34,558 nt of DNA from a virus (IMGVR_UViG_2585427767_000007); one strand, 5' to 3'. Positions 1,345 through 13,508 are shown, counted from the stretch's first letter. Numbers and translations: made by a program. Notes: generated by a model from the sequence alone, not told the origin.

Positions 1345-1465
1345 TTGACATGGTGCCTATATAGGGACTAAATTCCCTCAAAACTGGAACCTATATAGGT
1401 TCCATTGATTTGAGAATAAACCAGCGTCTAAACGGTTTTGAGTGGTTTAGAAAGGGCTGGATCCT
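1345..1465. promoter_or_regulatory. Early control region between C and cox with candidate rightward promoter and two palindromic operators
   Basis: TTGACA at 1345-1350. CCTATATAGG occurs twice (1356-1365 and 1390-1399); the second lies inside a perfect 18-bp palindrome GGAACCTATATAGGTTCC (1386-1403). Position corresponds to the P2/186 face-to-face Pe/Pc switch region. Confidence 0.5.
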
Positions 1466-3512: not shown

Positions 3513-4516
3513 TTACTGATGCTCGTTGCCATACTGAAAATACCATCAATGTTATTTTTGTTTCAGGTGGAAAGGACAGCCTTGCTCAGTGGCTTGTCGC
3601 TATTGAAGAAAATGTACCCATATTGCCGGTTTTTGCTGATACGGGACATGAACATCCACAGACAATGAAATATCTGGATTATCTGGAAAAACGGCTTGGC
3701 CCAATTAAAAGGGTCAGGGCTGATTTTTCCTGCCGGATTGAATCAAAGCGCAAGTTTATCCAGACCAAATGGCCTGATTTGTTGGTTAACGATTGTGGAA
3801 TGTCGGAAGAAGAAGCGCACCAGCGCATCAGTTGTGCGCTGGAAATTCTCAAACCAACGGGTATCCCGTTTCTTGATTTGTGTCTGTGGAAGGGGCGTTT
3901 CCCATCAACCAAAGCCAGATTTTGCACATTTGAACTGAAACATGAACCCGTGCGTTCTCAGGTAATCCTGCCTTTACTCAATGAATTTGAGGAAGTGATT
4001 AGCTGGCAGGGAGTGCGTGCTCAGGAATCGCCATCACGCGCAGCTTTACCTGTCTGGGAAGAGGATGCAGACAACACCCCCGGATTGCATGTATATCGCC
4101 CGATTTTGCACTGGAAGCATGAAGATGTATTTGCAATAGCCAGAAGACATGACATTAAGCCAAATCCGTTATATCTGCAGGGGTGTGGCCGTGTTGGTTG
4201 TATGCCATGTATTCATGTCCGTAAATCTGAACTGGCAGAAATTTTTCGCCGGTGGCCGGAGGAAATAAAGCGGGTTGCTGAATGGGAACGACTGGTTGCG
4301 TCGTGCTCCCGTCGGGGAAATTCCACTTTTTTCCCATCCACACATGATCCGTTACGCGCAGAACGTCGTATTGAGGTTGTAACAGTCGAGGCATACGGAA
4401 TTGAAACCTACCATGACTGGACAATGACAACGCGTGGGGGTACTCAGTTTGATTTACTGGCTTCGGCGAATGATAAAGCCGTTTGCAGTAGTGTCTATGC
4501 CGGTGTATGTGAATGA
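3509..4516 (+). CDS. PAPS-reductase-like PP-loop protein (phosphoadenosine phosphosulfate reductase family)
   Basis: N-terminal VIFVSGGKDS PP-loop (SGGxDS) motif and C-terminal cysteine cluster (GCGRVGCMPC). Translationally coupled to the downstream gpA gene (ATGA overlap at 4513-4516). Confidence 0.75.
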   Translation: MITDARCHTENTINVIFVSGGKDSLAQWLVAIEENVPILPVFADTGHEHPQTMKYLDYLEKRLGPIKRVRADFSCRIESKRKFIQTKWPDLLVNDCGMSEEEAHQRISCALEILKPTGIPFLDLCLWKGRFPSTKARFCTFELKHEPVRSQVILPLLNEFEEVISWQGVRAQESPSRAALPVWEEDADNTPGLHVYRPILHWKHEDVFAIARRHDIKPNPLYLQGCGRVGCMPCIHVRKSELAEIFRRWPEEIKRVAEWERLVASCSRRGNSTFFPSTHDPLRAERRIEVVTVEAYGIETYHDWTMTTRGGTQFDLLASANDKAVCSSVYAGVCE

Positions 4517-6804
4517 GTCATTCTTTCCAGGAGCAATACACCTGCGTACCTCCGTCTGCGTTTGCCGCAGGCACCGGTAAGGCGTTTACCGGTGCTTATG
4601 CATGGAATACGCCACGCGAGGCTGTCGGGCGCGAAAGACCCCTTACACGTGACGAGATGCGTCAGGTGCAAGGTGTTTTATCCACGATTAACCGCCTGCC
4701 TTACTTTTTGCGCTCGCTGTTTACTTCACGTTATGACTACATACGGCGCAATAAAAGCCCGCTACACGGGTTTTATTTCCTCACATCCACTTTTCAGCGT
4801 CGTTTATGGCCGCGCATTGAGCGTGTGAATCAGCGCCATGAAATGAACACCGACGCGTCGTTACTGTTTCTGGCAGAGCGTGACCACTATGCGCGCCTGC
4901 CGGGAATGAATGACAAGGAGCTGAAAAAGTTTGCTGCCCGTATCTCATCGCAGCTTTTCATGATGTATGAGGAACTCAGCGATGCCTGGGTGGATGCGCA
5001 TGGCGAAAAAGAATCGCTGTTTACGGATGAGGCGCAGGCTCACCTCTATGGTCATGTTGCTGGCGCTGCACGTGCTTTCAATGTTTCCCCTCTCTACTGG
5101 AAAAAATACCGTAAAGGGCAGATGACCACGAGGCAGGCATATTCTGCCATTGCCCGTCTGTTTAACGATGAGTGGTGGATTAGTCAGCTTAAAGGCCAGC
5201 GTATGCGCTGGCATGAGGCGTTACTGATTGCTGTCGGGGAGGTCAATAAAGACCGTTCTCCTTATGCCAGTAAACATGCCATTCGTGATGTGCGTGCACG
5301 CCGCCAGGCAAATCTGGAGTTTCTTAAATCGTGTGACCTTGAAAACAGGGAAACCGGCGAGCGCATCGACCTTATCAGTAAGGTGATGGGCAGTATTTCT
5401 AATCCTGAAATTCGCCGGATGGAGCTGATGAACACCATTGCCGGTATTGAGCGTTACGCTGCAGCAGAGGGTGATGTGGGGATGTTTATCACGCTGACCG
5501 CGCCGTCAAAGTATCACCCGACACGTCAGGTCGGAAAAGGCGAAAGTAAAACCGTCCAGCTAAATCACGGCTGGAACGATGAGGCATTTAATCCAAAGGA
5601 TGCGCAGCGTTATCTCTGCCGTATCTGGAGCCTGATGCGCACGGCATTCAAGGATAATGATTTACAGGTCTACGGTTTGCGTGTCGTCGAGCCACACCAC
5701 GACGGAACGCCGCACTGGCATATGATGCTTTTTTGTAATCCGCGCCAGCGTAACCAGATTATTGAAATCATGCGTCGCTATGCGCTCAAAGAGGATGGCG
5801 ACGAAAGAGGAGCCGCGCGAAACCGTTTTCAGGCAAAACACCTTAACCGGGGCGGTGCTGCGGGGTATATCGCGAAATACATCTCAAAAAACATCGACGG
5901 CTATGCACTGGATGGTCAGCTCGATAACGATACCGGCAGACCTCTGAAAGATACTGCCGCGGCTGTTACTGCATGGGCGTCAACGTGGCGCATCCCGCAA
6001 TTTAAAACGGTTGGTCTGCCGACAATGGGGGCTTACCGTGAACTACGCAAATTGCCGCGCGGCGTCAGCATTGCTGATGAGTTTGACGAGCGCGTCGAGG
6101 CTGCACGCGCCGCCGCAGACAGTGGTGATTTTGCGTTGTATATCAGCGCGCAGGGTGGGGCAAATGTCCCGCGCGATTGTCAGACTGTCAGGGTTGCCCG
6201 TAGCCCGTCGGATGAAGTTAACGAGTACGAGGAAGAAGTCGAGAGAGTGGTCGGCATTTACGCGCCGCATCTCGGCGCGCGTCATATTCATATCACCAGA
6301 ACGACGGACTGGCGCATTGTTCCGAAAGTTCCGGTCGTTGAGCCTTTGACTTTAAAAAGCGGCATCGCCGCGCCTCGGAGTCCTGTCAATAACTGTGGAA
6401 AACTCACCGGTGGTGATACTTCGTTACCGGCTCCCACACCTTCAGAGCACGCCGCAGCAGTGCTTAATCTGGTTGATGACGGTGTTATCGAATGGAATGA
6501 CCAGGAGGTCGTGAAGGCGCTAAGGGGCGCATTAAAACACGGACTGAGAACACCAAATCGTCAGCAAAGAGCCGGAAGCCCGTTAAAACCGCATGAAATA
6601 GCGCCATCGGCCAGAATGACCCGGTCGGAACGAATGCAAATTACCCGTATCCGCGTTGACCTTGCTCAGAACGGTATCAGGCCGCAGCGATGGGTGCTTG
6701 AGGCGCTGGCGCGTGGCGCGACCGTAAATTATGACGGGAAAAAATTCACGTATCCGGTCGCTGATGAGTGGCCGGGATTCTCAACAGTAATGGAGTGGAA
6801 ATGA
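4513..6804 (+). CDS. A: Rolling-circle replication initiation endonuclease gpA
   Basis: 763-aa ORF. HUH motif (PHWHMMLF) and downstream tyrosine pair region (YIAKYISKNIDGY) characteristic of P2 gpA-type relaxase/initiators. Size close to remembered P2 gpA. Confidence 0.9.
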   Translation: MSHSFQEQYTCVPPSAFAAGTGKAFTGAYAWNTPREAVGRERPLTRDEMRQVQGVLSTINRLPYFLRSLFTSRYDYIRRNKSPLHGFYFLTSTFQRRLWPRIERVNQRHEMNTDASLLFLAERDHYARLPGMNDKELKKFAARISSQLFMMYEELSDAWVDAHGEKESLFTDEAQAHLYGHVAGAARAFNVSPLYWKKYRKGQMTTRQAYSAIARLFNDEWWISQLKGQRMRWHEALLIAVGEVNKDRSPYASKHAIRDVRARRQANLEFLKSCDLENRETGERIDLISKVMGSISNPEIRRMELMNTIAGIERYAAAEGDVGMFITLTAPSKYHPTRQVGKGESKTVQLNHGWNDEAFNPKDAQRYLCRIWSLMRTAFKDNDLQVYGLRVVEPHHDGTPHWHMMLFCNPRQRNQIIEIMRRYALKEDGDERGAARNRFQAKHLNRGGAAGYIAKYISKNIDGYALDGQLDNDTGRPLKDTAAAVTAWASTWRIPQFKTVGLPTMGAYRELRKLPRGVSIADEFDERVEAARAAADSGDFALYISAQGGANVPRDCQTVRVARSPSDEVNEYEEEVERVVGIYAPHLGARHIHITRTTDWRIVPKVPVVEPLTLKSGIAAPRSPVNNCGKLTGGDTSLPAPTPSEHAAAVLNLVDDGVIEWNDQEVVKALRGALKHGLRTPNRQQRAGSPLKPHEIAPSARMTRSERMQITRIRVDLAQNGIRPQRWVLEALARGATVNYDGKKFTYPVADEWPGFSTVMEWK

Positions 6805-7043
6805 TGGCAAAAATTCACGAGGTAAAGCTGCACGCAAAATATTTCGACCTTGTGCTGGAAGGAAAGAAACGTGCGGAGTTTCGGAAAAATGACCGTAATT
6901 ATGAGTACGGAGACACGTTGATTTTGCATGAATGGGTTCAGGATGTGTATACGGGGCGAAAGGTTGAAGCCCGGATAACGGATGTTACGGACCTGTCAGA
7001 CTGGCTGGAGGATTATGTTTTGTTAAGTATTCAAGTGTGTTGA
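6801..7043 (+). CDS. Small ASCH/DUF3850-like protein (80 aa)
   Basis: ATG 6801 overlaps the gpA stop, with GGAG 5 nt upstream. Sequence (KIHEVKLHAKYFDLVLEGKKRAEFRKNDRNYEYGDTLILHEW) resembles the small beta-barrel ASCH-like family often found after gpA; family assignment is from memory. Confidence 0.55.
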   Translation: MMAKIHEVKLHAKYFDLVLEGKKRAEFRKNDRNYEYGDTLILHEWVQDVYTGRKVEARITDVTDLSDWLEDYVLLSIQVC

Positions 7044-7329
7044 AAATGTATGCGGTATGTATGGAAAACCGCACCATAACGAGAAAAATATCCAGTATGA
7101 ATCTGCTTAGATTAATAGATCGCAGAAGAGAGAAGAGGTATTGAGCCATGATGCCAATTTGTGAGATACCGAAGTGTTATGACAAAGATGCTTTTAATGT
7201 TACATTCCGTCATTACTCTTATTAATCATCTATTTCAATAGATTAGGATTAATCTGGCTATGTCATTGAAGATGCTCGATGTCTCGATATTTCTTAGCTA
7301 AAATAGGAGGCACTAAGGGAGAGGATGTT

Positions 7330-8388
7330 ATGTCTAAAATTTATGCTATTGACCTTTTTTGTGGTGCAGGTGGATTAACCCATGGTTTGATACAAGCAGG
7401 GATTGGTGTCATTGCTGGTATTGATTTAGATCCAGATTGCAGATGGGCGTATGAGCACAACAACAAAGCTAAATATATAAATTCAGATATTTGTGATGTA
7501 ACAGGTCAAGACCTTATGCGCTTGTGGCCAGAACAGGGAATAAGACTTCTTGCTGGTTGCGCCCCATGTCAGCCTTTTTCAAGTTATCGAAAAGGCAAGA
7601 TTGAATCTGCTGACGGCAAATGGAAACTCTTAGGTGAATTTGGACGGCTAGTCAAAGAATCTTCACCAGACTTGATAACCATGGAAAACGTACCAAGGTT
7701 ACAAAAGCATAAAATTTTCTTGGATTTTGTTAAAGACCTTAAGAAAGGTGGGTATAAGGTCTGGTATGGCGTCGTTGACTGTCAACAATATGGTGTGCCT
7801 CAGAAAAGGCAGCGATTAGTTTTACTGGCATCCAAGATCAGTGATGTTGTGTTGATTCCTCCAACACATTCAGAAGATAACTACGTAACAGTGAAAGATG
7901 CTATTTCTCATTTGCCAGAGATAGATTCAGGGCAAGCTGATGAGAAAGATCCATTACACGTTGCTCAGGGAATGAGCCAATTAAATCTCGAAAGGATTCG
8001 TCAATCAAAACCAGGTGGAACATGGAAGGATTGGGATCCTGAGTTGGTTGCTGCGTGCCATAAGAAAAGTAGTGGCAAAACTTACACAAGTGTATATGGA
8101 CGGATGAGATGGGATGAACCAGCTCCTACAATGACAACCCTATGTTTTGGTTTTGGTAATGGACGTTTTGGGCATCCTCAACAGGATAGGGCCATTTCTT
8201 TACGTGAGGCAGCTATCTTTCAAAGTTTTCCGGAGAACTATGTTTTTTCTGAACCAGGTGCAAAGATCACATTTGCAACAGTTGGTCGCTTGATTGGTAA
8301 TGCCGTTCCGGTAAAACTAGGTGAAGTTGTAGGAAAATCATTTATTAATAGTCTATCTGGGGGTAGTAGGAGAAATGGCGGAGCATAG
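7330..8388 (+). CDS. DNA (cytosine-5)-methyltransferase, Dcm-type
   Basis: Canonical C5-MTase motifs in canonical order: motif I FCGAGG (IDLFCGAGGLTHGL), motif IV PCQPFS (catalytic Cys), motif VI ENV, motif VIII QKRQR, motif X GNAV. ATG 7330 with GGGAGAGG Shine-Dalgarno; the track start at 7279 is a longer upstream extension. Lower GC than the phage backbone. Confidence 0.9.
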   Translation: MSKIYAIDLFCGAGGLTHGLIQAGIGVIAGIDLDPDCRWAYEHNNKAKYINSDICDVTGQDLMRLWPEQGIRLLAGCAPCQPFSSYRKGKIESADGKWKLLGEFGRLVKESSPDLITMENVPRLQKHKIFLDFVKDLKKGGYKVWYGVVDCQQYGVPQKRQRLVLLASKISDVVLIPPTHSEDNYVTVKDAISHLPEIDSGQADEKDPLHVAQGMSQLNLERIRQSKPGGTWKDWDPELVAACHKKSSGKTYTSVYGRMRWDEPAPTMTTLCFGFGNGRFGHPQQDRAISLREAAIFQSFPENYVFSEPGAKITFATVGRLIGNAVPVKLGEVVGKSFINSLSGGSRRNGGA

Positions 8389-10372
8389 CGAAGTTTTATC
8401 GCATGTTGATGAAAAAACACATACTTATGAGATGCTGGTTAGCTTGAGTGTTCTGGGGCATCTGGGGATCAATCTATATAGCAATGTTGCGGCAGTGATT
8501 ACGGAAACAGTAGCTAATGCATGGGATGCAGATGCTACAGAAGTGCATATAAAACTTTCTCCTGACAGAATCACTATTTCGGATAATGGTTTTGGAATGA
8601 CCATTCATGATATGAATTCGAAATATCTAACAGTTGGCTATCAAAAAAGAAATGATAAAAGCCAGCTATTAACTCCCAAGGGACGACTACCCATGGGCAG
8701 AAAAGGTATTGGTAAGTTATCTTTATTTTCTATTGCAAAAACTGTAACGGTTGAATCAATCAAGGATGGAGAACGACATGGTTTAGTTATGGAAGTTCCA
8801 AAAATAGAGCATGCAATCAAAAGTGGGGCTGGTAGATATTATCCAGAACCTTTGGATTCTGCTCAACTTTCTGTGAGTCAAGGAACATTAGTAACATTGC
8901 GTGATCTAAATCGATCTCGCATACCTGCCACTGCAACCGCTTTGCGTAAAAAGTTAGCAAGGCGTTTTTCTGTTATTGGTAGTAATGATTTTAGGGTCTT
9001 CGTTGATGGTGTAGAAGTAACAGCAAAGGAACGTGAGGACCTAAAACATGTTCAGTTCGTATGGGATATTAACTCGGGGGTAGATTTTAAAAAAGAATGT
9101 CCGGGGTTAATAACTGTAACTGACATTTCATCATTTTTGACAGAAAGTCAATTATTTAATCCTGAATGGAGCATTAAAGGGTGGATTGGTAGTATAAAAC
9201 AGCCTAGTCAGTTGAATACACCTGAAGGAAATCTAAATAGCATTGTTGTTTTATCTAGAGGTCGATTGTTTCAAGAGAACATTTTAGATGATATAAACGA
9301 TGGTGGGATATACACAAAGTATCTTACAGGGCAACTTGAGGCAGACTTCCTTGATACAGATGAAGATGAAGATATTGCAACAAGTGATAGACAACGAGTT
9401 GTTGAAGATGACCCTCGTTATCAATATTTGAAATCATTGGTTAAGATTGCCCTGAGAAAGGTTGCTGGTCAATGGAGCTCACTACGAGAAAAGCAAGGAG
9501 CAAAGGAAGCTAAAGAATCGAATCCGGTACTTGCGGAGTGGATCGGTTCATTAAAACCTGCTTCCCGAGGCTATGCAGAAAAAATGATCGCTCAAATTGA
9601 ATCGTTGCCTTTGGAGGATAAACCACAAGAGAAGAAGGAACTCTTTAAGCATGCAATTTTTGCATTTGAGCGCTTGCGTATTAAGGAAATGTCGCAGGAG
9701 CTAGCTGATGCTGTATTTTTTAATGCAGAAAAATTATTGCCATTGCTTGAGAAACAAGACGATTTAGAGGCAACATTATATTATGAGATAGCTAAGAGTC
9801 GTGTAGATGTTATTCAAAGCTTCAAAGGCCTAGTCGATAACGATGAAAAAGAAAAAGTATTGCAACGTTATCTTTTTGAACACCTTTGGTTATTAGACCC
9901 ATCATGGGAAAGAATTGATGGTTCTCCAATAATGGAGTCGCGTGTTAACCAAGAGTGGGACAAGATTGATGCTGGCCTGAGTGAAGAAGAGAAGAAAGGT
10001 CGTATGGATATAAAATATCGCTCATCTGCAGGTAAGCATATTATCATTGAACTTAAGAGAGCTAGCGTATTGACTTCTGTTGCAAATCTAGTCAGTCAGG
10101 GGAATAAGTACAGGCAGGCAGTAATTAAGTGTGCAAAAGCTGTTGACCCGGCCTCAACACCATCAATTGATGTGATTTTTGTCCTTGGTCGAGAGCCATC
10201 AGATTATGCGTTAGACCCATCTTATACTAACCTTCAGCTACAGTCAGTGAATGGTCGGATTGTTTATTATGATGGGCTAATTAATAGCGCACAGAGCTCG
10301 TATAGAGAATATACAGAGAGGCAGGCTACTGTTGCAAGGATTGCTGAAATCGTTAAAAAACTAGATGACTAG
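8375..10372 (+). CDS. GHKL/HATPase_c-type ATPase (665 aa) with C-terminal PD-(D/E)xK-like nuclease motif; candidate restriction/defence effector
   Basis: Bergerat-fold motifs near the N-terminus: N-box ETVANAWDA (ExxxNAxDA), G1 box DNGFGM, G2 box GRKGIGKLS. C-terminal region has D...ExK pattern (GRMDIKY...HIIIELKR). ATG 8375 overlaps the MTase stop by 14 nt with AGGAG upstream. Low GC. Confidence 0.8.
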   Translation: MAEHSEVLSHVDEKTHTYEMLVSLSVLGHLGINLYSNVAAVITETVANAWDADATEVHIKLSPDRITISDNGFGMTIHDMNSKYLTVGYQKRNDKSQLLTPKGRLPMGRKGIGKLSLFSIAKTVTVESIKDGERHGLVMEVPKIEHAIKSGAGRYYPEPLDSAQLSVSQGTLVTLRDLNRSRIPATATALRKKLARRFSVIGSNDFRVFVDGVEVTAKEREDLKHVQFVWDINSGVDFKKECPGLITVTDISSFLTESQLFNPEWSIKGWIGSIKQPSQLNTPEGNLNSIVVLSRGRLFQENILDDINDGGIYTKYLTGQLEADFLDTDEDEDIATSDRQRVVEDDPRYQYLKSLVKIALRKVAGQWSSLREKQGAKEAKESNPVLAEWIGSLKPASRGYAEKMIAQIESLPLEDKPQEKKELFKHAIFAFERLRIKEMSQELADAVFFNAEKLLPLLEKQDDLEATLYYEIAKSRVDVIQSFKGLVDNDEKEKVLQRYLFEHLWLLDPSWERIDGSPIMESRVNQEWDKIDAGLSEEEKKGRMDIKYRSSAGKHIIIELKRASVLTSVANLVSQGNKYRQAVIKCAKAVDPASTPSIDVIFVLGREPSDYALDPSYTNLQLQSVNGRIVYYDGLINSAQSSYREYTERQATVARIAEIVKKLDD

Positions 10373-10443
10373 TTTTTAACACTTAAGGATGCCTATATAT
10401 GCTGCATGGATCTGCATGACCATTTGAATAATTTTTTTGTTAA

Positions 10444-10468
10444 GGCCCGTCAGAATTGGCGGGCTTTT
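10444..10468 (+). terminator. Possible intrinsic terminator after the cargo operon
   Basis: GCCCG ... CGGGC stem followed by TTTT, about 70 nt after the ATPase stop. Stem is short and the loop long, so weak. Confidence 0.35.
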
Positions 10469-10513
10469 GCTTAACTTATAGATGTGCATGAAAATATCTC
10501 CATGAAGCGGGCG

Positions 10514-10532
10514 GGCGAGGCGGGGAAAGCAC
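10514..10532. other. Candidate cos site (19-nt cohesive-end sequence of P2-type phages)
   Basis: GGCGAGGCGGGGAAAGCAC matches my recollection of the P2 cohesive end, and lies where cos is expected in a P2 prophage (between the old/tin-position cargo and the 3' end of Q). Confidence 0.55.
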
Positions 10533-10674
10533 TGCGCGCTGGCGGGGGTGCTGATTTTATTTTTTCAGCGTCTGAGCGCGTCGTGAAGGCGTTTACTTGG
10601 CCTGCTGGGGCGTTGGTGTGTCTGCGGGATTTTTTGTGCGGTGATGAGCGTGTGAGGGCGTGATGACGGGGTGT

Positions 10675-10696
10675 AAAAAAGCCGCCCGCAGGCGGC
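10675..10696 (-). terminator. Rho-independent terminator of the Q-P operon
   Basis: On the minus strand, GCCGCC-tgcg-GGCGGC hairpin followed by TTTTTT, starting 5 nt after the Q stop codon. Confidence 0.7.
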
Positions 10697-10701
10697 GATG
10701 T

Positions 10702-11736
10702 TCAGCCGTTGTCAGTGTCCAGTGAGTAGTTTTTAAAGCGGATGACCTCCTGACCGAGCCAGCCGTTTATTTCCCGAATCCTGTCCTGTAGCGGGATAAG
10801 TTCATTGCGGACAAAGACCTTTGCCACTTTCTCAATATCACCCAGAGACCCGACGTTCTCCGGCTTGCCGCCCATCAACTGAAAGGGGATGCGGTGTGCG
10901 TCCAGCAGGTCAGCGGCGCTGGCTTTTTTGATATTAAAAAAATCGTCCTTCGTCGCCACTTCACTGAGCGGGATAATTTTAATGCCGTCGGCTTTCCCCT
11001 GTGGGGCATAGAGAAACAGGTTTTTAAAGTTATTGCGGCCTTTCGACTTCACCATGTTTTCGCGAAGCATTTCGATATCGTTGCGGTCCTGCACGGCATC
11101 GGTGACGTACATGATGTATCCGGCATGCGCGCCGTTTTCGTAATACTTGCGGCGGAACAGCGTGGCCGACTCATTCAGCCAGGCAGAGTTAAGGGCGCTG
11201 AGATATTCCGGCAGGCCGTACAGCTCCTGATTAATATCCGGCTCCAGCAGGTGAAACACGGAACCGGGCGCGAAAGGTGTCGGCTCGTTGAAGGACGGCA
11301 CCCACCAGTAAACATCCTCCTCCACGCCACGGCGGGGATATTTTGCCGGGGAGGTTTCCAGTCTGATGATCTTACCGGTGGTGCTGTAACGCTTTTCCAG
11401 AAACGCATTACCGAACACCAGAAAATCCAGCACAAAGCGGCTGAAATCCTGTTGCGAAAGCCACGGATGCGGGATAAATGTCGAGGCCAGAATATTGCGT
11501 TTAACGTAAATCGGTGAGCTGTGATGCACGGCAGCACGCAGGCTTTTCGCCAGACCGGTAAAGCTGACCGGCGGCTCATACCATCTGCCGTTACTGATGC
11601 ACTCGACGTAATCCAGAATGTCACGGCGGTCGAGTACCGGCACCGGCTCACCAAAGGTGAATGCCTCCATTTTCGGGGCGCTGGCGGTCATTTTTTTTGC
11701 CGCAGGTTGCGGTGTTTTCCCTTTTTTCTTGCTCAT
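10702..11736 (-). CDS. Q: Portal protein gpQ
   Basis: 344-aa minus-strand ORF at the canonical position next to cos; matches remembered P2 gpQ size. Start ATG overlaps the terminase stop by 1 nt. Confidence 0.9.
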   Translation of the reverse strand: MSKKKGKTPQPAAKKMTASAPKMEAFTFGEPVPVLDRRDILDYVECISNGRWYEPPVSFTGLAKSLRAAVHHSSPIYVKRNILASTFIPHPWLSQQDFSRFVLDFLVFGNAFLEKRYSTTGKIIRLETSPAKYPRRGVEEDVYWWVPSFNEPTPFAPGSVFHLLEPDINQELYGLPEYLSALNSAWLNESATLFRRKYYENGAHAGYIMYVTDAVQDRNDIEMLRENMVKSKGRNNFKNLFLYAPQGKADGIKIIPLSEVATKDDFFNIKKASAADLLDAHRIPFQLMGGKPENVGSLGDIEKVAKVFVRNELIPLQDRIREINGWLGQEVIRFKNYSLDTDNG

Positions 11737-13508
11737 CAGTAAAACTCCAGAATGGTGGATGTCAGCGGGGTGCTGATACCGGCGGTGAGTGGCTCATTTA
11801 ACAGGGCGTGCATGGTCGCCCAGGCGAGGTCGGCGTGGCTGGCTTCCTCGCTGCGGCTGGCCTCATAAGTGGCGCTGCGTCCGCTGCTGGTCATGGTCTT
11901 GCGGATAGCCATAAACGAGCTGGTGATGTCGGTGGCGCTGACGTCATATTCCAGACAGCCACGGCGGATGACGTCTTTTGCCTTGAGCACCATTGCGGTT
12001 TTCATTTCCGGCGTGTAGCGGATATCGCGCGCGGCGGGATAGAACGAGCGCACGAGCTGGAACACGCCGACACCGAGGCCGGTGGCATCAATACCGATGT
12101 ATTCGACGTTGTATTTTTCGGTGAGTTTGCGGATGGATTCCGCCTGAGTGGCAAAGTCCATGCCTTTCCACTGGTGACGCTCAAGTATTCTGAATTTGCC
12201 ACCGGCCACCACCGGCGGTGCCAGTACCACGCATCCGGCGCTGTCGCCACGGTGTGACGGGTCGTAACCAATCCAGACCGGGCGGGAGCCGAACGGATTG
12301 GCGGCAAACGGCGCATAGTCTTCCCATTCTTCCAGCGTGTCGACCATGCAGCGTTGCAGCTCCTCGAACGGGAACACCGACGCCTTGTCGTCAACAAATT
12401 CACACATGAACAGGTTTTTAAAATCGTCGGCGCTGTTTTCGCGTTTGAGCTGTTCAATGTCGAACAGCGTGCAGCCACCTTTCAGGGCGTCCTCAATGGT
12501 GACAATCTGCCGCCACTGGCCGTCCGCACAGAGAAGCCCACCGGCAAGGGCGTTATGACTGACGTCGATTTCCACGCGTTCGGCGGCGCTGGCGCGTCCC
12601 CGGTTGAACAGTTCACCTGACCAGAACGGGTAGGCGTCGTGCGCCAGCGTGGACGGGGTGGAGAAATAGGTCGAGCGCAGGTGACTCTGTGAGGCCATAC
12701 CTGATGCCACCTTACGCAGTACCTGAAAATTCGGGATCCAGAAAATCTCGTCGACGTACAGGTCGCCGTTATGGCTCTGTGCGGTGTTGGAGTTGGTGCC
12801 GAGAAAAATCAGTTTTGCGCCGTTATTGCCCAGGACAATCGGGTCACCGGTCAGGTCAACGTCAACCAGCCGGGCAAAGGCGATGATGTATTCGCGGAAC
12901 ACATACGCCTGCGTTTTACTGGCCGACAGAAAAATCTGGTTATGGCCGGTTTTCAGGGCGCGCAGCAGCGCCTCGCGGGAAAAATAAAACGTCGCGCCAA
13001 TCTGGCGGGATTTCAGGATATCGCGGATGCGGTGCTCAAGCCCGGCGCGATACCAGTGCAACTGATAGTCGAAAGACTGCTCAAAGAAAATCTGCTCCAG
13101 CTTTTCGATGGCCTCGTCACTGAAAAAATTTTTTTTCGGTTTGCGCCGCCCGCCTTTGTTGCGGTTAGCGACGTTCGGATTAAGGTCTGCCTCGTTGCCG
13201 GTCTGGCTGTAACGATTTACCCGTGCCAGTCGTTCAATCTGGCGTCCCAGCAGGTCAATTTCCTTGAAGTCACCGCCGGTTTTCTGCGGTTTGATGATGA
13301 GCTGGGTCAGCCGCGCTTCCAGGCTCATTTCGACACGGCTGATGGGGGCAACATTGTCCCAGCCGTCGCGCTGTTTCCAGCTCTGCACTGTCGGGCGTTT
13401 CATCTGCAACATGGCGGCAATCTGCGGCACGGAAAATCCCTGCCAGTACAGCAGCGCCGCCTGACGACGCGGGTCGTGTAAAAGAGTGGTGTCTGTGGTG
13501 ATGGTCAT
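11736..13508 (-). CDS. P: Terminase large (ATPase) subunit gpP
   Basis: Minus-strand ORF. The track start at 13538 is a TTG; the in-frame ATG at 13506-13508 (MTITTDTTLL...) gives 590 aa, matching remembered P2 gpP size. Confidence 0.9.
   Translation of the reverse strand: MTITTDTTLLHDPRRQAALLYWQGFSVPQIAAMLQMKRPTVQSWKQRDGWDNVAPISRVEMSLEARLTQLIIKPQKTGGDFKEIDLLGRQIERLARVNRYSQTGNEADLNPNVANRNKGGRRKPKKNFFSDEAIEKLEQIFFEQSFDYQLHWYRAGLEHRIRDILKSRQIGATFYFSREALLRALKTGHNQIFLSASKTQAYVFREYIIAFARLVDVDLTGDPIVLGNNGAKLIFLGTNSNTAQSHNGDLYVDEIFWIPNFQVLRKVASGMASQSHLRSTYFSTPSTLAHDAYPFWSGELFNRGRASAAERVEIDVSHNALAGGLLCADGQWRQIVTIEDALKGGCTLFDIEQLKRENSADDFKNLFMCEFVDDKASVFPFEELQRCMVDTLEEWEDYAPFAANPFGSRPVWIGYDPSHRGDSAGCVVLAPPVVAGGKFRILERHQWKGMDFATQAESIRKLTEKYNVEYIGIDATGLGVGVFQLVRSFYPAARDIRYTPEMKTAMVLKAKDVIRRGCLEYDVSATDITSSFMAIRKTMTSSGRSATYEASRSEEASHADLAWATMHALLNEPLTAGISTPLTSTILEFY

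What the first reader, a model, noticed from the sequence alone, without database searches (positions are those of the whole stretch)
7179..7254. Candidate promoter and 34-bp near-palindrome upstream of the methyltransferase operon
ATGACA-N16-TACATT (7179-7206) is a plausible sigma70 promoter. Immediately downstream is ATTAATCATCTATTTCAATAGATTAGGATTAATC (7221-7254), a nested inverted repeat (ATTAATC...GATTAAT enclosing ATCTATT-tc-AATAGAT). Palindromes at this position in restriction-modification operons often act as operators that time MTase versus nuclease expression; no separate controller gene is evident here.
Basis: seen in the sequence. Interest (0 to 1): 0.45.

Follow-up and report, generated by a model that had tools for sequence, protein, structure and literature searches.

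The report
Tandem promoters of a mobile restriction-modification cassette
The flagged stretch is the upstream part of the control region of a two-gene restriction-modification cassette carried in a P2-like prophage: the promoter call looks right, but the palindrome is not a conserved operator, and a second promoter nearer the gene is the one conserved in most relatives.

Summary

They lie in the control region of an AT-rich cargo module (about 7170-10390). The module has a C5 cytosine methyltransferase and a GHKL-ATPase restriction enzyme of the BbrUII/HgiDII family. It sits in the gpA-gpQ hotspot of an E. coli P2-like prophage.

I compared versions from Klebsiella, Salmonella, Cronobacter and more distant relatives. 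Synonymous sites between most of them are nearly saturated.

- **Flagged promoter:** conserved, and it begins the shared module.
- **Proximal promoter:** TCGATG-N17-TAAAAT (7276-7304) is the only non-coding element conserved across all seven upstream types.
- **Palindrome:** not conserved as a palindrome. The right outer arm lies in neutrally evolving DNA and is deleted in Salmonella. The inner arms shrink from 7 to 5 bp or fewer. There is no covariation.
- **Central block:** about 30 nt (7218-7247) is conserved as sequence in three lineages but has decayed in Cronobacter.
- **Regulator:** no controller gene, no C-box, no HTH extension on the methyltransferase, and no GTCGAC site in the promoter region.

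Verdict: an ordinary tandem-promoter region. The operator idea is not supported.

The parts
7170..7206 (+). Predicted start near 7213.
   Evidence: Conservation against the neutral rate: 31/37 W-K, 30/37 W-S, 34/37 K-C. Homology with the Klebsiella type begins at about 7169.
7221..7254 (.). The nested inverted repeat as flagged: outer arms 7221-7227 and 7247-7253, inner arms 7228-7234 and 7237-7243. In this full form it is specific to the E. coli version.
7218..7247 (+). Conserved block B2: left outer arm, inner repeat and TTAGG. It is conserved as sequence, not as symmetry, in E. coli, Klebsiella and Salmonella, and has decayed in Cronobacter. Its function is unknown.
   Evidence: 24/30 W-K, 24/30 W-S, 23/30 K-S, but 21/30 K-C, which equals the neutral rate. 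Alignments.
7233..7245 (+). TTTCAA-N4-TTA, a 12/13 match to the IHF consensus WATCAANNNNTTR. The nine specified positions are invariant in four types and three of the four N positions vary. This is a lead only.
   Evidence: One-mismatch matches to this consensus occur at chance frequency.
7247..7265 (.). Neutrally evolving spacer that contains the right outer arm of the palindrome. It is deleted in the Salmonella version.
   Evidence: spacer2 8/18, 5/18, 3/18; right arm 0/7 against S.
7275..7304 (+). Proximal promoter: -35 box (C)TCGATG 7275-7281, 17-nt spacer, -10 TAAAAT 7299-7304. Predicted start near 7311. It is the only non-coding element invariant in all seven upstream types.
   Evidence: invariant C7275-T7280, T7299, A7300, T7304; TCGATR-N17-TAnnnT in 7 types at -54 to -50; 39/39 K-C. 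The 61-62% relatives L094, L143 and L144 have TTGACA at the equivalent place.
7317..7332 (+). Shine-Dalgarno GGGAGAGGA (7317-7325) and the methyltransferase start codon ATG (7330).
   Evidence: The start ATGTCTAAAATTTATGC is conserved, and the 7279 ATG is followed by a stop codon in the Klebsiella type.
7330..8388 (+). C5 cytosine DNA methyltransferase, 352 aa. Motif I begins at about residue 6, so there is no N-terminal DNA-binding extension.
   Evidence: PF00145 E=1.3e-55; TIGR00675; RefSeq annotation.
8375..10372 (+). Restriction enzyme of the BbrUII/HgiDII family, 665 aa, with an N-terminal GHKL ATPase domain. Its start overlaps the methyltransferase gene by 14 nt.
   Evidence: NF050001 785 bits against a cutoff of 550; PF13589; PMC2441816.
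10356..10377 (.). 9-bp perfect inverted repeat AAAAACTAG-atga-CTAGTTTTT over the stop codon, near the right end of the module (P2 backbone resumes at about 10390). Possible terminator.
   Evidence: The simple terminator scan did not call it.

Best explanation
The flagged 76 nt are the upstream half of a self-contained control region of about 160 nt (7170-7329). This region travels with a two-gene Type II restriction-modification cassette: a C5 methyltransferase followed by a GHKL-ATPase endonuclease of the HgiDII/BbrUII family. The cassette is cargo in the gpA-gpQ defence hotspot of an E. coli P2-like prophage.

The region carries two sigma-70 promoters in tandem.
It should start transcription near 7213 and give a leader of about 117 nt.
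- The proximal one is TCGATG-N17-TAAAAT (7276-7304). It should start near 7311, giving a short leader with the Shine-Dalgarno sequence. It is conserved in every relative with REase identity of 71% or more.
- Both would let the cassette express itself in a lysogen, where the phage early operon upstream is repressed (inference).

The palindrome lies between the two promoters. Its centre (7218-7247) is a sequence block under constraint in the E. coli, Klebsiella and Salmonella versions, but its symmetry is not under selection. The full nested repeat is an accident of the E. coli lineage. It is therefore not a C-box-type operator and probably does not time methylase against nuclease. At most, the conserved centre is an accessory element, either a host-factor site or a leader sequence, and the Cronobacter version has done without it.

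Shown here: the coordinates, block-wise conservation against the synonymous rate, lack of covariation, and absence of a regulator gene or domain. Inferred: promoter activity, start sites, and any role of block B2.
For: - Context: gpA, truncated DUF3850, methyltransferase, restriction enzyme and portal genes. AT-rich island. P2 backbone resumes at about 10390. The hotspot between gpA and gpQ is described in PMC9122126.
- The module occurs in several contexts with homology starting at about 7169.
- Four-fold-site identity is 0.36-0.49 among W, K and S, and 0.73-0.755 for K-C.
- Block identities: B1 31/37, 30/37 and 34/37; B3 32/39 and 39/39; B4 21/25. Spacers are at neutral level.
- B2 is 24/30, 24/30 and 23/30 among W, K and S, but 21/30 for K-C. 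The right outer arm is 0/7 against S.
- The proximal promoter is invariant in seven upstream types with a fixed 17-nt spacer and unconserved intervening sequence.
- A distal plus a proximal promoter are among the top-scoring sites in seven of the eight types with REase identity of 71% or more; in L092 the proximal one scores too low but is present by pattern match.
- No covariation in the hairpin and no significant inverted repeat in any of 11 relatives.
- The leader RNA folds no better than shuffles, z=+0.97. No Rfam match.
- No HTH or C gene, no C-box and no GTCGAC in the region.
Against: - No transcription data exist, so both promoters are predictions.
- The -35 of the proximal promoter matches the consensus at only 3 of 6 positions and scores 6.5 bits. 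Its invariant non-consensus CTCGAT box might be a binding site rather than, or as well as, a -35 element.
- PWM scores like that of the distal promoter occur inside genes of the island.
- Block B2 is clearly constrained in three lineages. Something functional lies inside the palindrome, so a regulatory protein site cannot be excluded.
- The nested 7+7 repeat is rare in shuffles (0.15%).
- Only about five independent upstream lineages were available.
- Alignment optimisation inflates non-coding identity somewhat. The spacers serve as the internal control for this.
Confidence: 0.55

Rival explanations
1. The conserved centre of the palindrome is a binding site for a host nucleoid protein, most plausibly IHF. 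The site would be TTTCAA-N4-TTA at 7233-7245, preceded by an AT-rich tract. Bending the DNA about 72 nt upstream of the proximal start, or 20-32 nt downstream of the distal start, would modulate one or both promoters, perhaps counteracting H-NS silencing of the AT-rich cargo.
For: - 12/13 match to WATCAANNNNTTR in the W, K, S and C types.
- The nine specified positions are invariant and three of the four N positions vary. If three variable columns fell at random among 13, the chance that all three landed on the N positions is about 0.014 (my calculation, made after seeing the pattern).
- L090 and L091 also have 12/13 matches to WATCAR-N4-TTR at the aligned place.
- AT-rich defence cargo is reported to be H-NS-silenced (abstract of 10.64898/2026.09.05.749240).
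Against: - One-mismatch matches to the consensus occur at chance frequency (10 found, 9.4 expected in 9 kb), and there is no exact match anywhere in the window.
- The mismatch falls in the conserved ATC core.
- The distance to the proximal -35 varies by 10 nt, because Salmonella lacks about 10 nt of the spacer.
- The consensus is recalled from memory, and no IHF weight matrix or binding data were available.
Confidence: 0.17
2. One reading: the palindrome is an operator for a dimeric repressor or activator. The protein would be either the methyltransferase or the endonuclease acting on its own promoter, or a phage or host factor. Bound at +9 to +42 of the distal promoter, it would delay nuclease expression relative to methylase after the cassette enters a new cell.
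For: - The position is right for a roadblock.
- The nested repeat is rare in shuffles.
- The central block is constrained in three lineages.
- One pair (7229/7242) is T-A in E. coli and G-C in Cronobacter, while it is unpaired in the others.
Against: - No controller gene or HTH domain in the module. The methyltransferase has no N-terminal extension. No C-box.
- Symmetry is not conserved.
- The outer arm is deleted in Salmonella, and the left inner arm is removed by indels in L091 and L142.
- The block is decaying at the neutral rate in Cronobacter, where both genes remain intact.
- Both genes are in one operon, so an operator upstream of both could not by itself separate their timing.
- The module occurs in P2-like and lambdoid prophages and next to an IS element, which argues against a phage-specific regulator.
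Confidence: 0.08
3. Only the proximal promoter is functional. The flagged -35/-10 match and the palindrome would then have no promoter or operator role, and their conservation would reflect some other constraint, such as an upstream AT-rich activating sequence or the recombination boundary of the cassette.
For: - The consensus scan is at chance level, and comparable PWM scores occur inside genes.
- In L091 and L142 the shared TATGATAA motif reads as a -10, not a -35, so the exact promoter reading is not stable across the family.
- The inner repeat is at chance level.
Against: - B1 is as conserved as the proximal promoter in every pairwise comparison.
- The Salmonella 1-nt indel preserves a legal spacer.
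- TGnTACATT is identical in four types.
- Seven of the eight types with REase identity of 71% or more have a strong distal promoter candidate 100-130 nt upstream of the start codon; in the Cronobacter type the equivalent site (ATGATA-N16-TACATT) ends 135 nt upstream.
Confidence: 0.15
4. The palindrome acts at the RNA level, as a hairpin in the long leader made from the distal promoter. It could affect stability, processing or translation of the methyltransferase message.
For: The element would be transcribed from the distal promoter. The 46-nt segment folds better than its own shuffles, z=-3.8.
Against: - The hairpin is weak (-5.3 to -6.6 kcal/mol).
- The whole leader folds no better than shuffles.
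- No covariation, and the stem is broken in the K, S and C types.
- No Rfam family matches.
Confidence: 0.04

Closest known systems
Controller (C) protein / C-box regulation of Type II restriction-modification systems (PvuII, EcoRV, AhdI, Esp1396I; from established knowledge)
   Same: A palindromic element sits upstream of a restriction-modification operon, at a position where an operator could act.
   Different: There is no C gene or HTH ORF in or beside the module. No GACT-N3-AGTC-like box occurs between 6382 and 7643. The symmetry is not conserved in relatives.
Autoregulating C5 methyltransferases with an N-terminal HTH region (SsoII, Ecl18kI, EcoRII, MspI, ScrFIA; from established knowledge)
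   Same: A C5 methyltransferase is encoded first, with an inverted repeat in its promoter region and no separate regulator.
   Different: The catalytic motif I (FCGAGG) begins at about residue 6 of the protein, so there is no N-terminal DNA-binding domain.
Methylation-sensitive promoters such as CfrBI (the system's own site inside the promoter; from established knowledge)
   Same: A C-protein-independent system. The proximal -35 box contains an invariant TCGA core.
   Different: The family's reported site, GTCGAC (M.HgiDII; PMC5867850), is absent from 7044-7329. The nearest site is at 12339. The specificity of this particular enzyme was not determined.
HgiDII/BbrUII restriction-modification systems
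   Same: The endonuclease meets the NCBIfam equivalog NF050001 (785 bits) and has the N-terminal GHKL domain described for R.HgiDII (PMC2441816). Its partner is an m5C methyltransferase, as for M.HgiDII.
   Different: This is an enterobacterial, prophage-borne version. I found no published description of its promoters or regulation in the library searched.
Defence cargo of the P2 gpA-gpQ hotspot (old/tin locus), which is expressed from native promoters
   Same: Same locus, between the replication gene A and the portal gene Q. The cargo is AT-rich and self-contained, with its own promoter region (PMC9122126).
   Different: Here the cargo is a classical Type II restriction-modification pair rather than a new defence system. 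The same cassette also sits in a lambdoid prophage and beside an IS element.

Membership tests
C-protein-controlled restriction-modification system | A small HTH controller gene within or next to the operon | tested here: not met
   Pfam finds no HTH in any ORF of 7040-10700, including the small ORFs at 6985-7149(-), 7148-7222(+) and 10484-10663(+). The module holds only the methyltransferase and the endonuclease.
C-protein-controlled restriction-modification system | A C-box operator (paired GACT...AGTC-type symmetric sites) upstream of the controlled gene | tested here: not met
   No GACTNNNAGTC match, with up to 2 mismatches, between 6382 and 7643. The palindrome sequence is unrelated to this box.
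Operator (symmetric protein-binding site) in general | Dyad symmetry maintained across homologous loci | tested here: not met
   72.9% of cells pair against 72.2% in shuffles; eight of 14 pairs depart only through unpaired cells. No relative has a significant inverted repeat at this position. The right arm is neutral or deleted.
SsoII/EcoRII-type autoregulating C5 methyltransferase | An N-terminal DNA-binding extension before motif I | tested here: not met
   The PF00145 match starts at residue 23 of the 369-aa ORF, which is residue 6 from the conserved ATG at 7330. The protein begins MSKIYAIDLFCGAGG.
CfrBI-type methylation-sensitive promoter | The system's own recognition site lies inside the promoter | tested here: inconclusive
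   GTCGAC, the site reported for M.HgiDII, is absent from the region. However, the specificity of this enzyme is only inferred from family membership. The invariant CTCGAT box remains unexplained.
Sigma-70 promoter (distal, 7179-7206) | -35 and -10 hexamers with a 16-18 nt spacer, kept in relatives | tested here: met
   5/6 and 4/6 hexamer matches plus TG. ATGAYA-N16/17-TGnTACATT is present in the W, K, S and C types. The block is conserved above the neutral rate.
Sigma-70 promoter (distal and proximal) | A mapped transcription start and RNA polymerase dependence | not testable with these tools
   No transcriptome or start-site data were available.
Sigma-70 promoter (proximal, 7276-7304) | Two hexamers at fixed spacing with unconserved intervening sequence, placed just upstream of the ribosome-binding site | tested here: met
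   TCGATR-N17-TAnnnT is present in seven upstream types at -54 to -50. The hexamer columns are invariant. Note that the -35 matches the consensus at only 3/6.
IHF binding site | Match to WATCAANNNNTTR with an upstream AT-rich tract, plus demonstrated binding | tested here: inconclusive
   A 12/13 match whose conservation pattern fits the consensus. Such matches occur at chance frequency. Binding cannot be tested here.
BbrUII/HgiDII family restriction enzyme | Score above the NCBIfam equivalog cutoff, and an N-terminal GHKL domain | tested here: met
   NF050001 785.3 bits against a cutoff of 550. PF13589 at residues 38-145.

The most novel reading that the evidence does not exclude
The conserved centre of the palindrome (7218-7247), possibly together with the invariant non-consensus CTCGAT box of the proximal promoter, could be a cis-regulatory site. 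Through it the cassette's own GHKL-ATPase endonuclease or its methyltransferase, or a host factor such as IHF, would set expression. That would be a controller-independent way of regulating a Type II restriction-modification system carried by prophages.
Probability: 0.07. Interest if true: 0.5.

Novelty: new member of a known kind. Interest (0 to 1): 0.2.

Why it matters
Restriction-modification cassettes must protect the host genome before the nuclease acts. How systems without a controller protein manage this is known for only a few cases.

This cassette moves between P2-like prophage hotspots, a lambdoid prophage and a site next to an IS3-family transposase gene (L293), and it carries its own compact control region with it. 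If the tandem promoters are real, there are defined sequences to test: the start of the shared module, two promoters, and one conserved block of unknown role.

The practical value is modest. It gives better annotation of defence cargo in prophages and a clean set of constructs for anyone studying this enzyme family. Nothing here overturns current understanding.

Tried and rejected
- **Small ORFs.** The 25-aa ORF (7148-7225) and the 20-aa ORF starting at the ATG of ATGACA (7179-7241) are not conserved. Their N-termini lie in non-homologous flanks, and the Salmonella version has a 1-nt indel that shifts the frame while the nucleotides stay conserved. No Pfam hits.
- **Structured RNA.** No Rfam match. 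The leader folds no better than shuffles.
- **Minus-strand promoter in the palindrome (TTGAAA).** No consistent -10 across the types (and by eye).
- **Fur box, P2 Cox box and several other remembered consensus sites.** Matches compared by eye were weak (9-13 of 19 for Fur) and not conserved. No tool test was run on these.
- **C-box.** Absent.
- **GTCGAC in the promoter.** Absent.
- **Ogr-type late promoter dyad (TGT-N12-ACA).** Not present, by eye.
- **Search for more upstream variants.** Three IMG/VR pattern scans, one metagenome scan and one genome scan returned only the types already in hand or relatives at 45-54% identity whose upstream regions I did not examine.
- **E. coli, phage and plasmid BLAST of the intergenic region.** Only seven near-identical E. 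coli genomes matched.
- **A motif possibly shared with the 61-62% relatives (TGATAAACAT).** By my estimate it could be a chance 10-12-mer match, so I did not rely on it.

Full report
**What is in the sequence.** The coordinates are exact. ATGACA is at 7179-7184, followed by a 16-nt spacer and TACATT at 7201-7206. TG at 7198-7199 makes this an extended -10. The repeat has outer arms ATTAATC (7221-7227) and GATTAAT (7247-7253). Its inner arms are ATCTATT (7228-7234) and AATAGAT (7237-7243), with a 2-nt loop and a 3-nt bulge.

**Context.**
- The window is an E. coli P2-like prophage. It encodes replication protein gpA (4513-6804), a DUF3850/ASCH gene (6804-7043) that RefSeq marks as truncated, and the portal protein on the minus strand (10702-11736).
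- Between these lies an AT-rich island of 34-45% GC, against 52-60% in the flanks.
- The island encodes a C5 cytosine methyltransferase. Its conserved ATG is at 7330, and the gene ends at 8388.
- It also encodes a 665-aa protein (8375-10372) with an N-terminal GHKL ATPase domain. This protein meets the NCBIfam equivalog for BbrUII/HgiDII restriction enzymes, scoring 785 bits against a cutoff of 550.
- R.HgiDII is described as having a GHKL N-terminal domain (PMC2441816). M.HgiDII is an m5C enzyme for GTCGAC (PMC5867850).
- The site is the gpA-gpQ hotspot, which holds old and tin in P2 itself (PMC9122126).
- The P2 backbone resumes at about 10390.
- The intergenic sequence occurs in only seven of 5426 complete E. 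coli genomes, at 99.7-100% identity.

**Is it more than chance?**
- For the promoter, sequence alone is weak evidence. The consensus scan finds 9 sites where 9.8 are expected.
- A position-weight score with an extended -10 bonus ranks the site 6th in the window, but several sites inside genes of the island score almost as high.
- For the palindrome, the inner 7+7 repeat is matched or beaten in 23-26% of dinucleotide shuffles.
- The nested 7+7 arrangement appears in 0.15% of shuffles. That criterion was chosen after seeing the repeat.
- A gapped inverted-repeat score is reached by 14.5% of shuffles.
- As a hairpin the element is weak, at -5.3 to -6.6 kcal/mol.

**Relatives.** Homologues of the endonuclease form a graded series. 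I recovered the cassette in the following contexts.

| Type | Host and context | REase identity |
|---|---|---|
| K | Klebsiella, Enterobacter and Kluyvera P2-like prophages, after a DinI-like gene | 91-92% |
| C | Cronobacter P2-like prophage | 91% |
| – | Serratia, next to an IS3-family transposase | 91% |
| S | Salmonella lambdoid prophage, beside ninG and Q | 87% |
| L089/L090, L091, L142, L092 | Various | 80%, 75%, 74%, 71% |
| L093, L094, L143, L144 | Various | 61-63% |

Homology between the E. coli (W) and K types begins at about 7169, just upstream of the flagged -35.

**Neutral yardstick.**
- Four-fold degenerate sites in the two genes are only 36-49% identical among W, K and S, which is near saturation.
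- They are 73-75.5% identical between K and C.
- Third-position identity is uniform along the genes, so the cassette is not a mosaic.

**Phylogenetic footprint.** The upstream region splits into constrained blocks separated by spacers at the neutral level.

| Block | Coordinates | Identity | Reading |
|---|---|---|---|
| B1, flagged promoter | 7170-7206 | 31/37 W-K, 30/37 W-S, 34/37 K-C | Constrained |
| Spacer 1 | 7207-7217 | 4/11, 3/11, plus a 15-17-nt indel | Neutral |
| B2 | 7218-7247 | 24/30 W-K, 24/30 W-S, 23/30 K-S, 21/30 K-C | Constrained, except K-C at the neutral rate |
| Spacer 2, with the right outer arm | 7248-7265 | 8/18, 5/18, 3/18 | Neutral |
| B3 | 7266-7304 | 32/39 W-K, 39/39 K-C | Constrained |
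| B4, leader and Shine-Dalgarno | 7305-7329 | 21/25 W-K | Constrained |

- In B2, seven or eight of the ten K-C differences in the 38-nt B2 region compared by eye are derived in Cronobacter.
- In spacer 2, about 10 nt are deleted in Salmonella.

**The promoter call holds.**
- ATGAYA-N16/17-TGnTACATT is present in W, K, S and C.
- The Salmonella 1-nt insertion keeps a legal spacer. It also shifts the frame of every small ORF that crosses the block, so the constraint is on the DNA and not on a peptide.
- The more distant relatives L090, L091, L142 and L092 each carry a strong distal promoter, TTTACS-N17-TAT(G/T)AT, ending 129-153 nt upstream of the start codon. A distal promoter is therefore a shared feature, even though the exact hexamers are not.

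- Across seven upstream types, the only invariant non-coding columns are CTCGAT (7275-7280) and the T, A and final T of TAAAAT (7299-7304), plus Shine-Dalgarno G residues.
- All seven have TCGAT(G/A)-N17-TAnnnT, 50-54 nt before the start codon, with unrelated sequence in between. That pattern is the signature of a sigma-70 promoter.
- L094, L143 and L144 have TTGACA at the equivalent place; L093 (63%) does not.
- The predicted start is near 7311, giving a leader of about 19 nt.
- The -35 box matches the consensus at only 3 of 6 positions, yet it is invariant. I cannot explain this.

**The operator idea fails its tests.**
- Counting the 14 proposed pairs over five distinct sequences, 72.9% of cells pair. 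Shuffling partners among sequences gives 72.2%. Eight pairs depart only through unpaired cells, and one pair shows a double change, which is within shuffle expectation.
- In K the inner arms are 5 bp and the outer arms match at 5 of 7.
- In S the right outer arm is gone.
- In C both inner arms carry non-compensating changes.
- In L091 and L142, indels remove the left inner arm while the flanking motifs TATTAAT/AAATCA and (A/G)TTAGG remain.
- None of 11 relatives has a significant inverted repeat between the two promoters.
- There is no controller gene, no HTH domain and no C-box. The methyltransferase has no N-terminal extension.
- No GTCGAC lies nearer than 12339.
- Both genes are in one operon, so an operator upstream of both could not by itself separate their timing (inference).

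**What the conserved centre might be.**
- Within B2, TTTCAA-N4-TTA (7233-7245) is a 12/13 match to the IHF consensus WATCAANNNNTTR, which I recalled from memory.
- In W, K, S and C the nine specified positions are invariant, and three of the four N positions vary.
- This is suggestive, but one-mismatch matches to the consensus occur at chance frequency (10 found, 9.4 expected). I keep it as a rival only.
- An RNA role is unlikely. The leader folds no better than shuffles (z=+0.97), and no Rfam family matches.

**Verdict.** The region is best read as tandem promoters of a mobile restriction-modification cassette, with one extra conserved block of unknown and apparently dispensable function. This is an ordinary regulatory region, newly described but not of a new kind.

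Noticed in passing
window 10356-10377: A 9-bp perfect inverted repeat, AAAAACTAG-atga-CTAGTTTTT, spans the endonuclease stop codon about 15 nt before the P2 backbone resumes. It may be a bidirectional terminator marking the right end of the cassette. The simple terminator scan did not call it.
   Followed up: partly
window 7275-7289: The -35 box of the proximal promoter, CTCGAT(G/A), is invariant in seven diverged upstream types despite matching the consensus poorly. E. coli has it twice in tandem (CTCGATGTCTCGAT), and Salmonella has an imperfect second copy (CTCGATATCTCGGA). It may be more than a -35 element.
   Followed up: partly
window 6804-7043: The DUF3850/ASCH gene upstream is annotated in RefSeq as a pseudogene missing its C-terminus. 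The cargo insertion seems to have clipped it.
   Followed up: no
window 8375-10372 (alignment A1): The C-terminal half of the endonuclease has invariant D545, E559 and K561 (D-x13-E-x-K), which looks like a PD-(D/E)XK nuclease signature. A 2008 classification (PMC2441816) left this domain of R.HgiDII unassigned.
   Followed up: no
window 8375-8388; L084 3485-3501: In E. coli the methyltransferase is 352 aa and overlaps the endonuclease start by 14 nt. In the Klebsiella, Salmonella and Cronobacter versions it is 342 aa and stops 15 nt before the endonuclease ATG.
   Followed up: no
NZ_OY754453.1 (hit H21): In one E. coli genome the cassette match is split by an IS2 insertion. The annotated features suggest the insertion lies in the endonuclease gene, which would leave an orphan methyltransferase, but I did not inspect the locus.
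   Followed up: no
L088, L293, L084, L291: The same cassette sits in P2-like hotspots after different upstream genes, in a Salmonella lambdoid prophage beside ninG and Q, and next to an IS3-family transposase in Serratia. It moves as a unit together with its control region.
   Followed up: partly
window 1377-1414: A 10+10 perfect palindrome, TGGAACCTATATAGGTTCCA (1385-1404), with nested outer arms lies in the integrase region. It is stronger than the flagged repeat.
   Followed up: no
L002 (NZ_CP159540.1): Another E. coli P2-like prophage carries, at the same hotspot, a different dcm-type methyltransferase with a convergently oriented ATP-binding protein. It is only about 70% identical at the DNA level over short stretches.
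   Followed up: no
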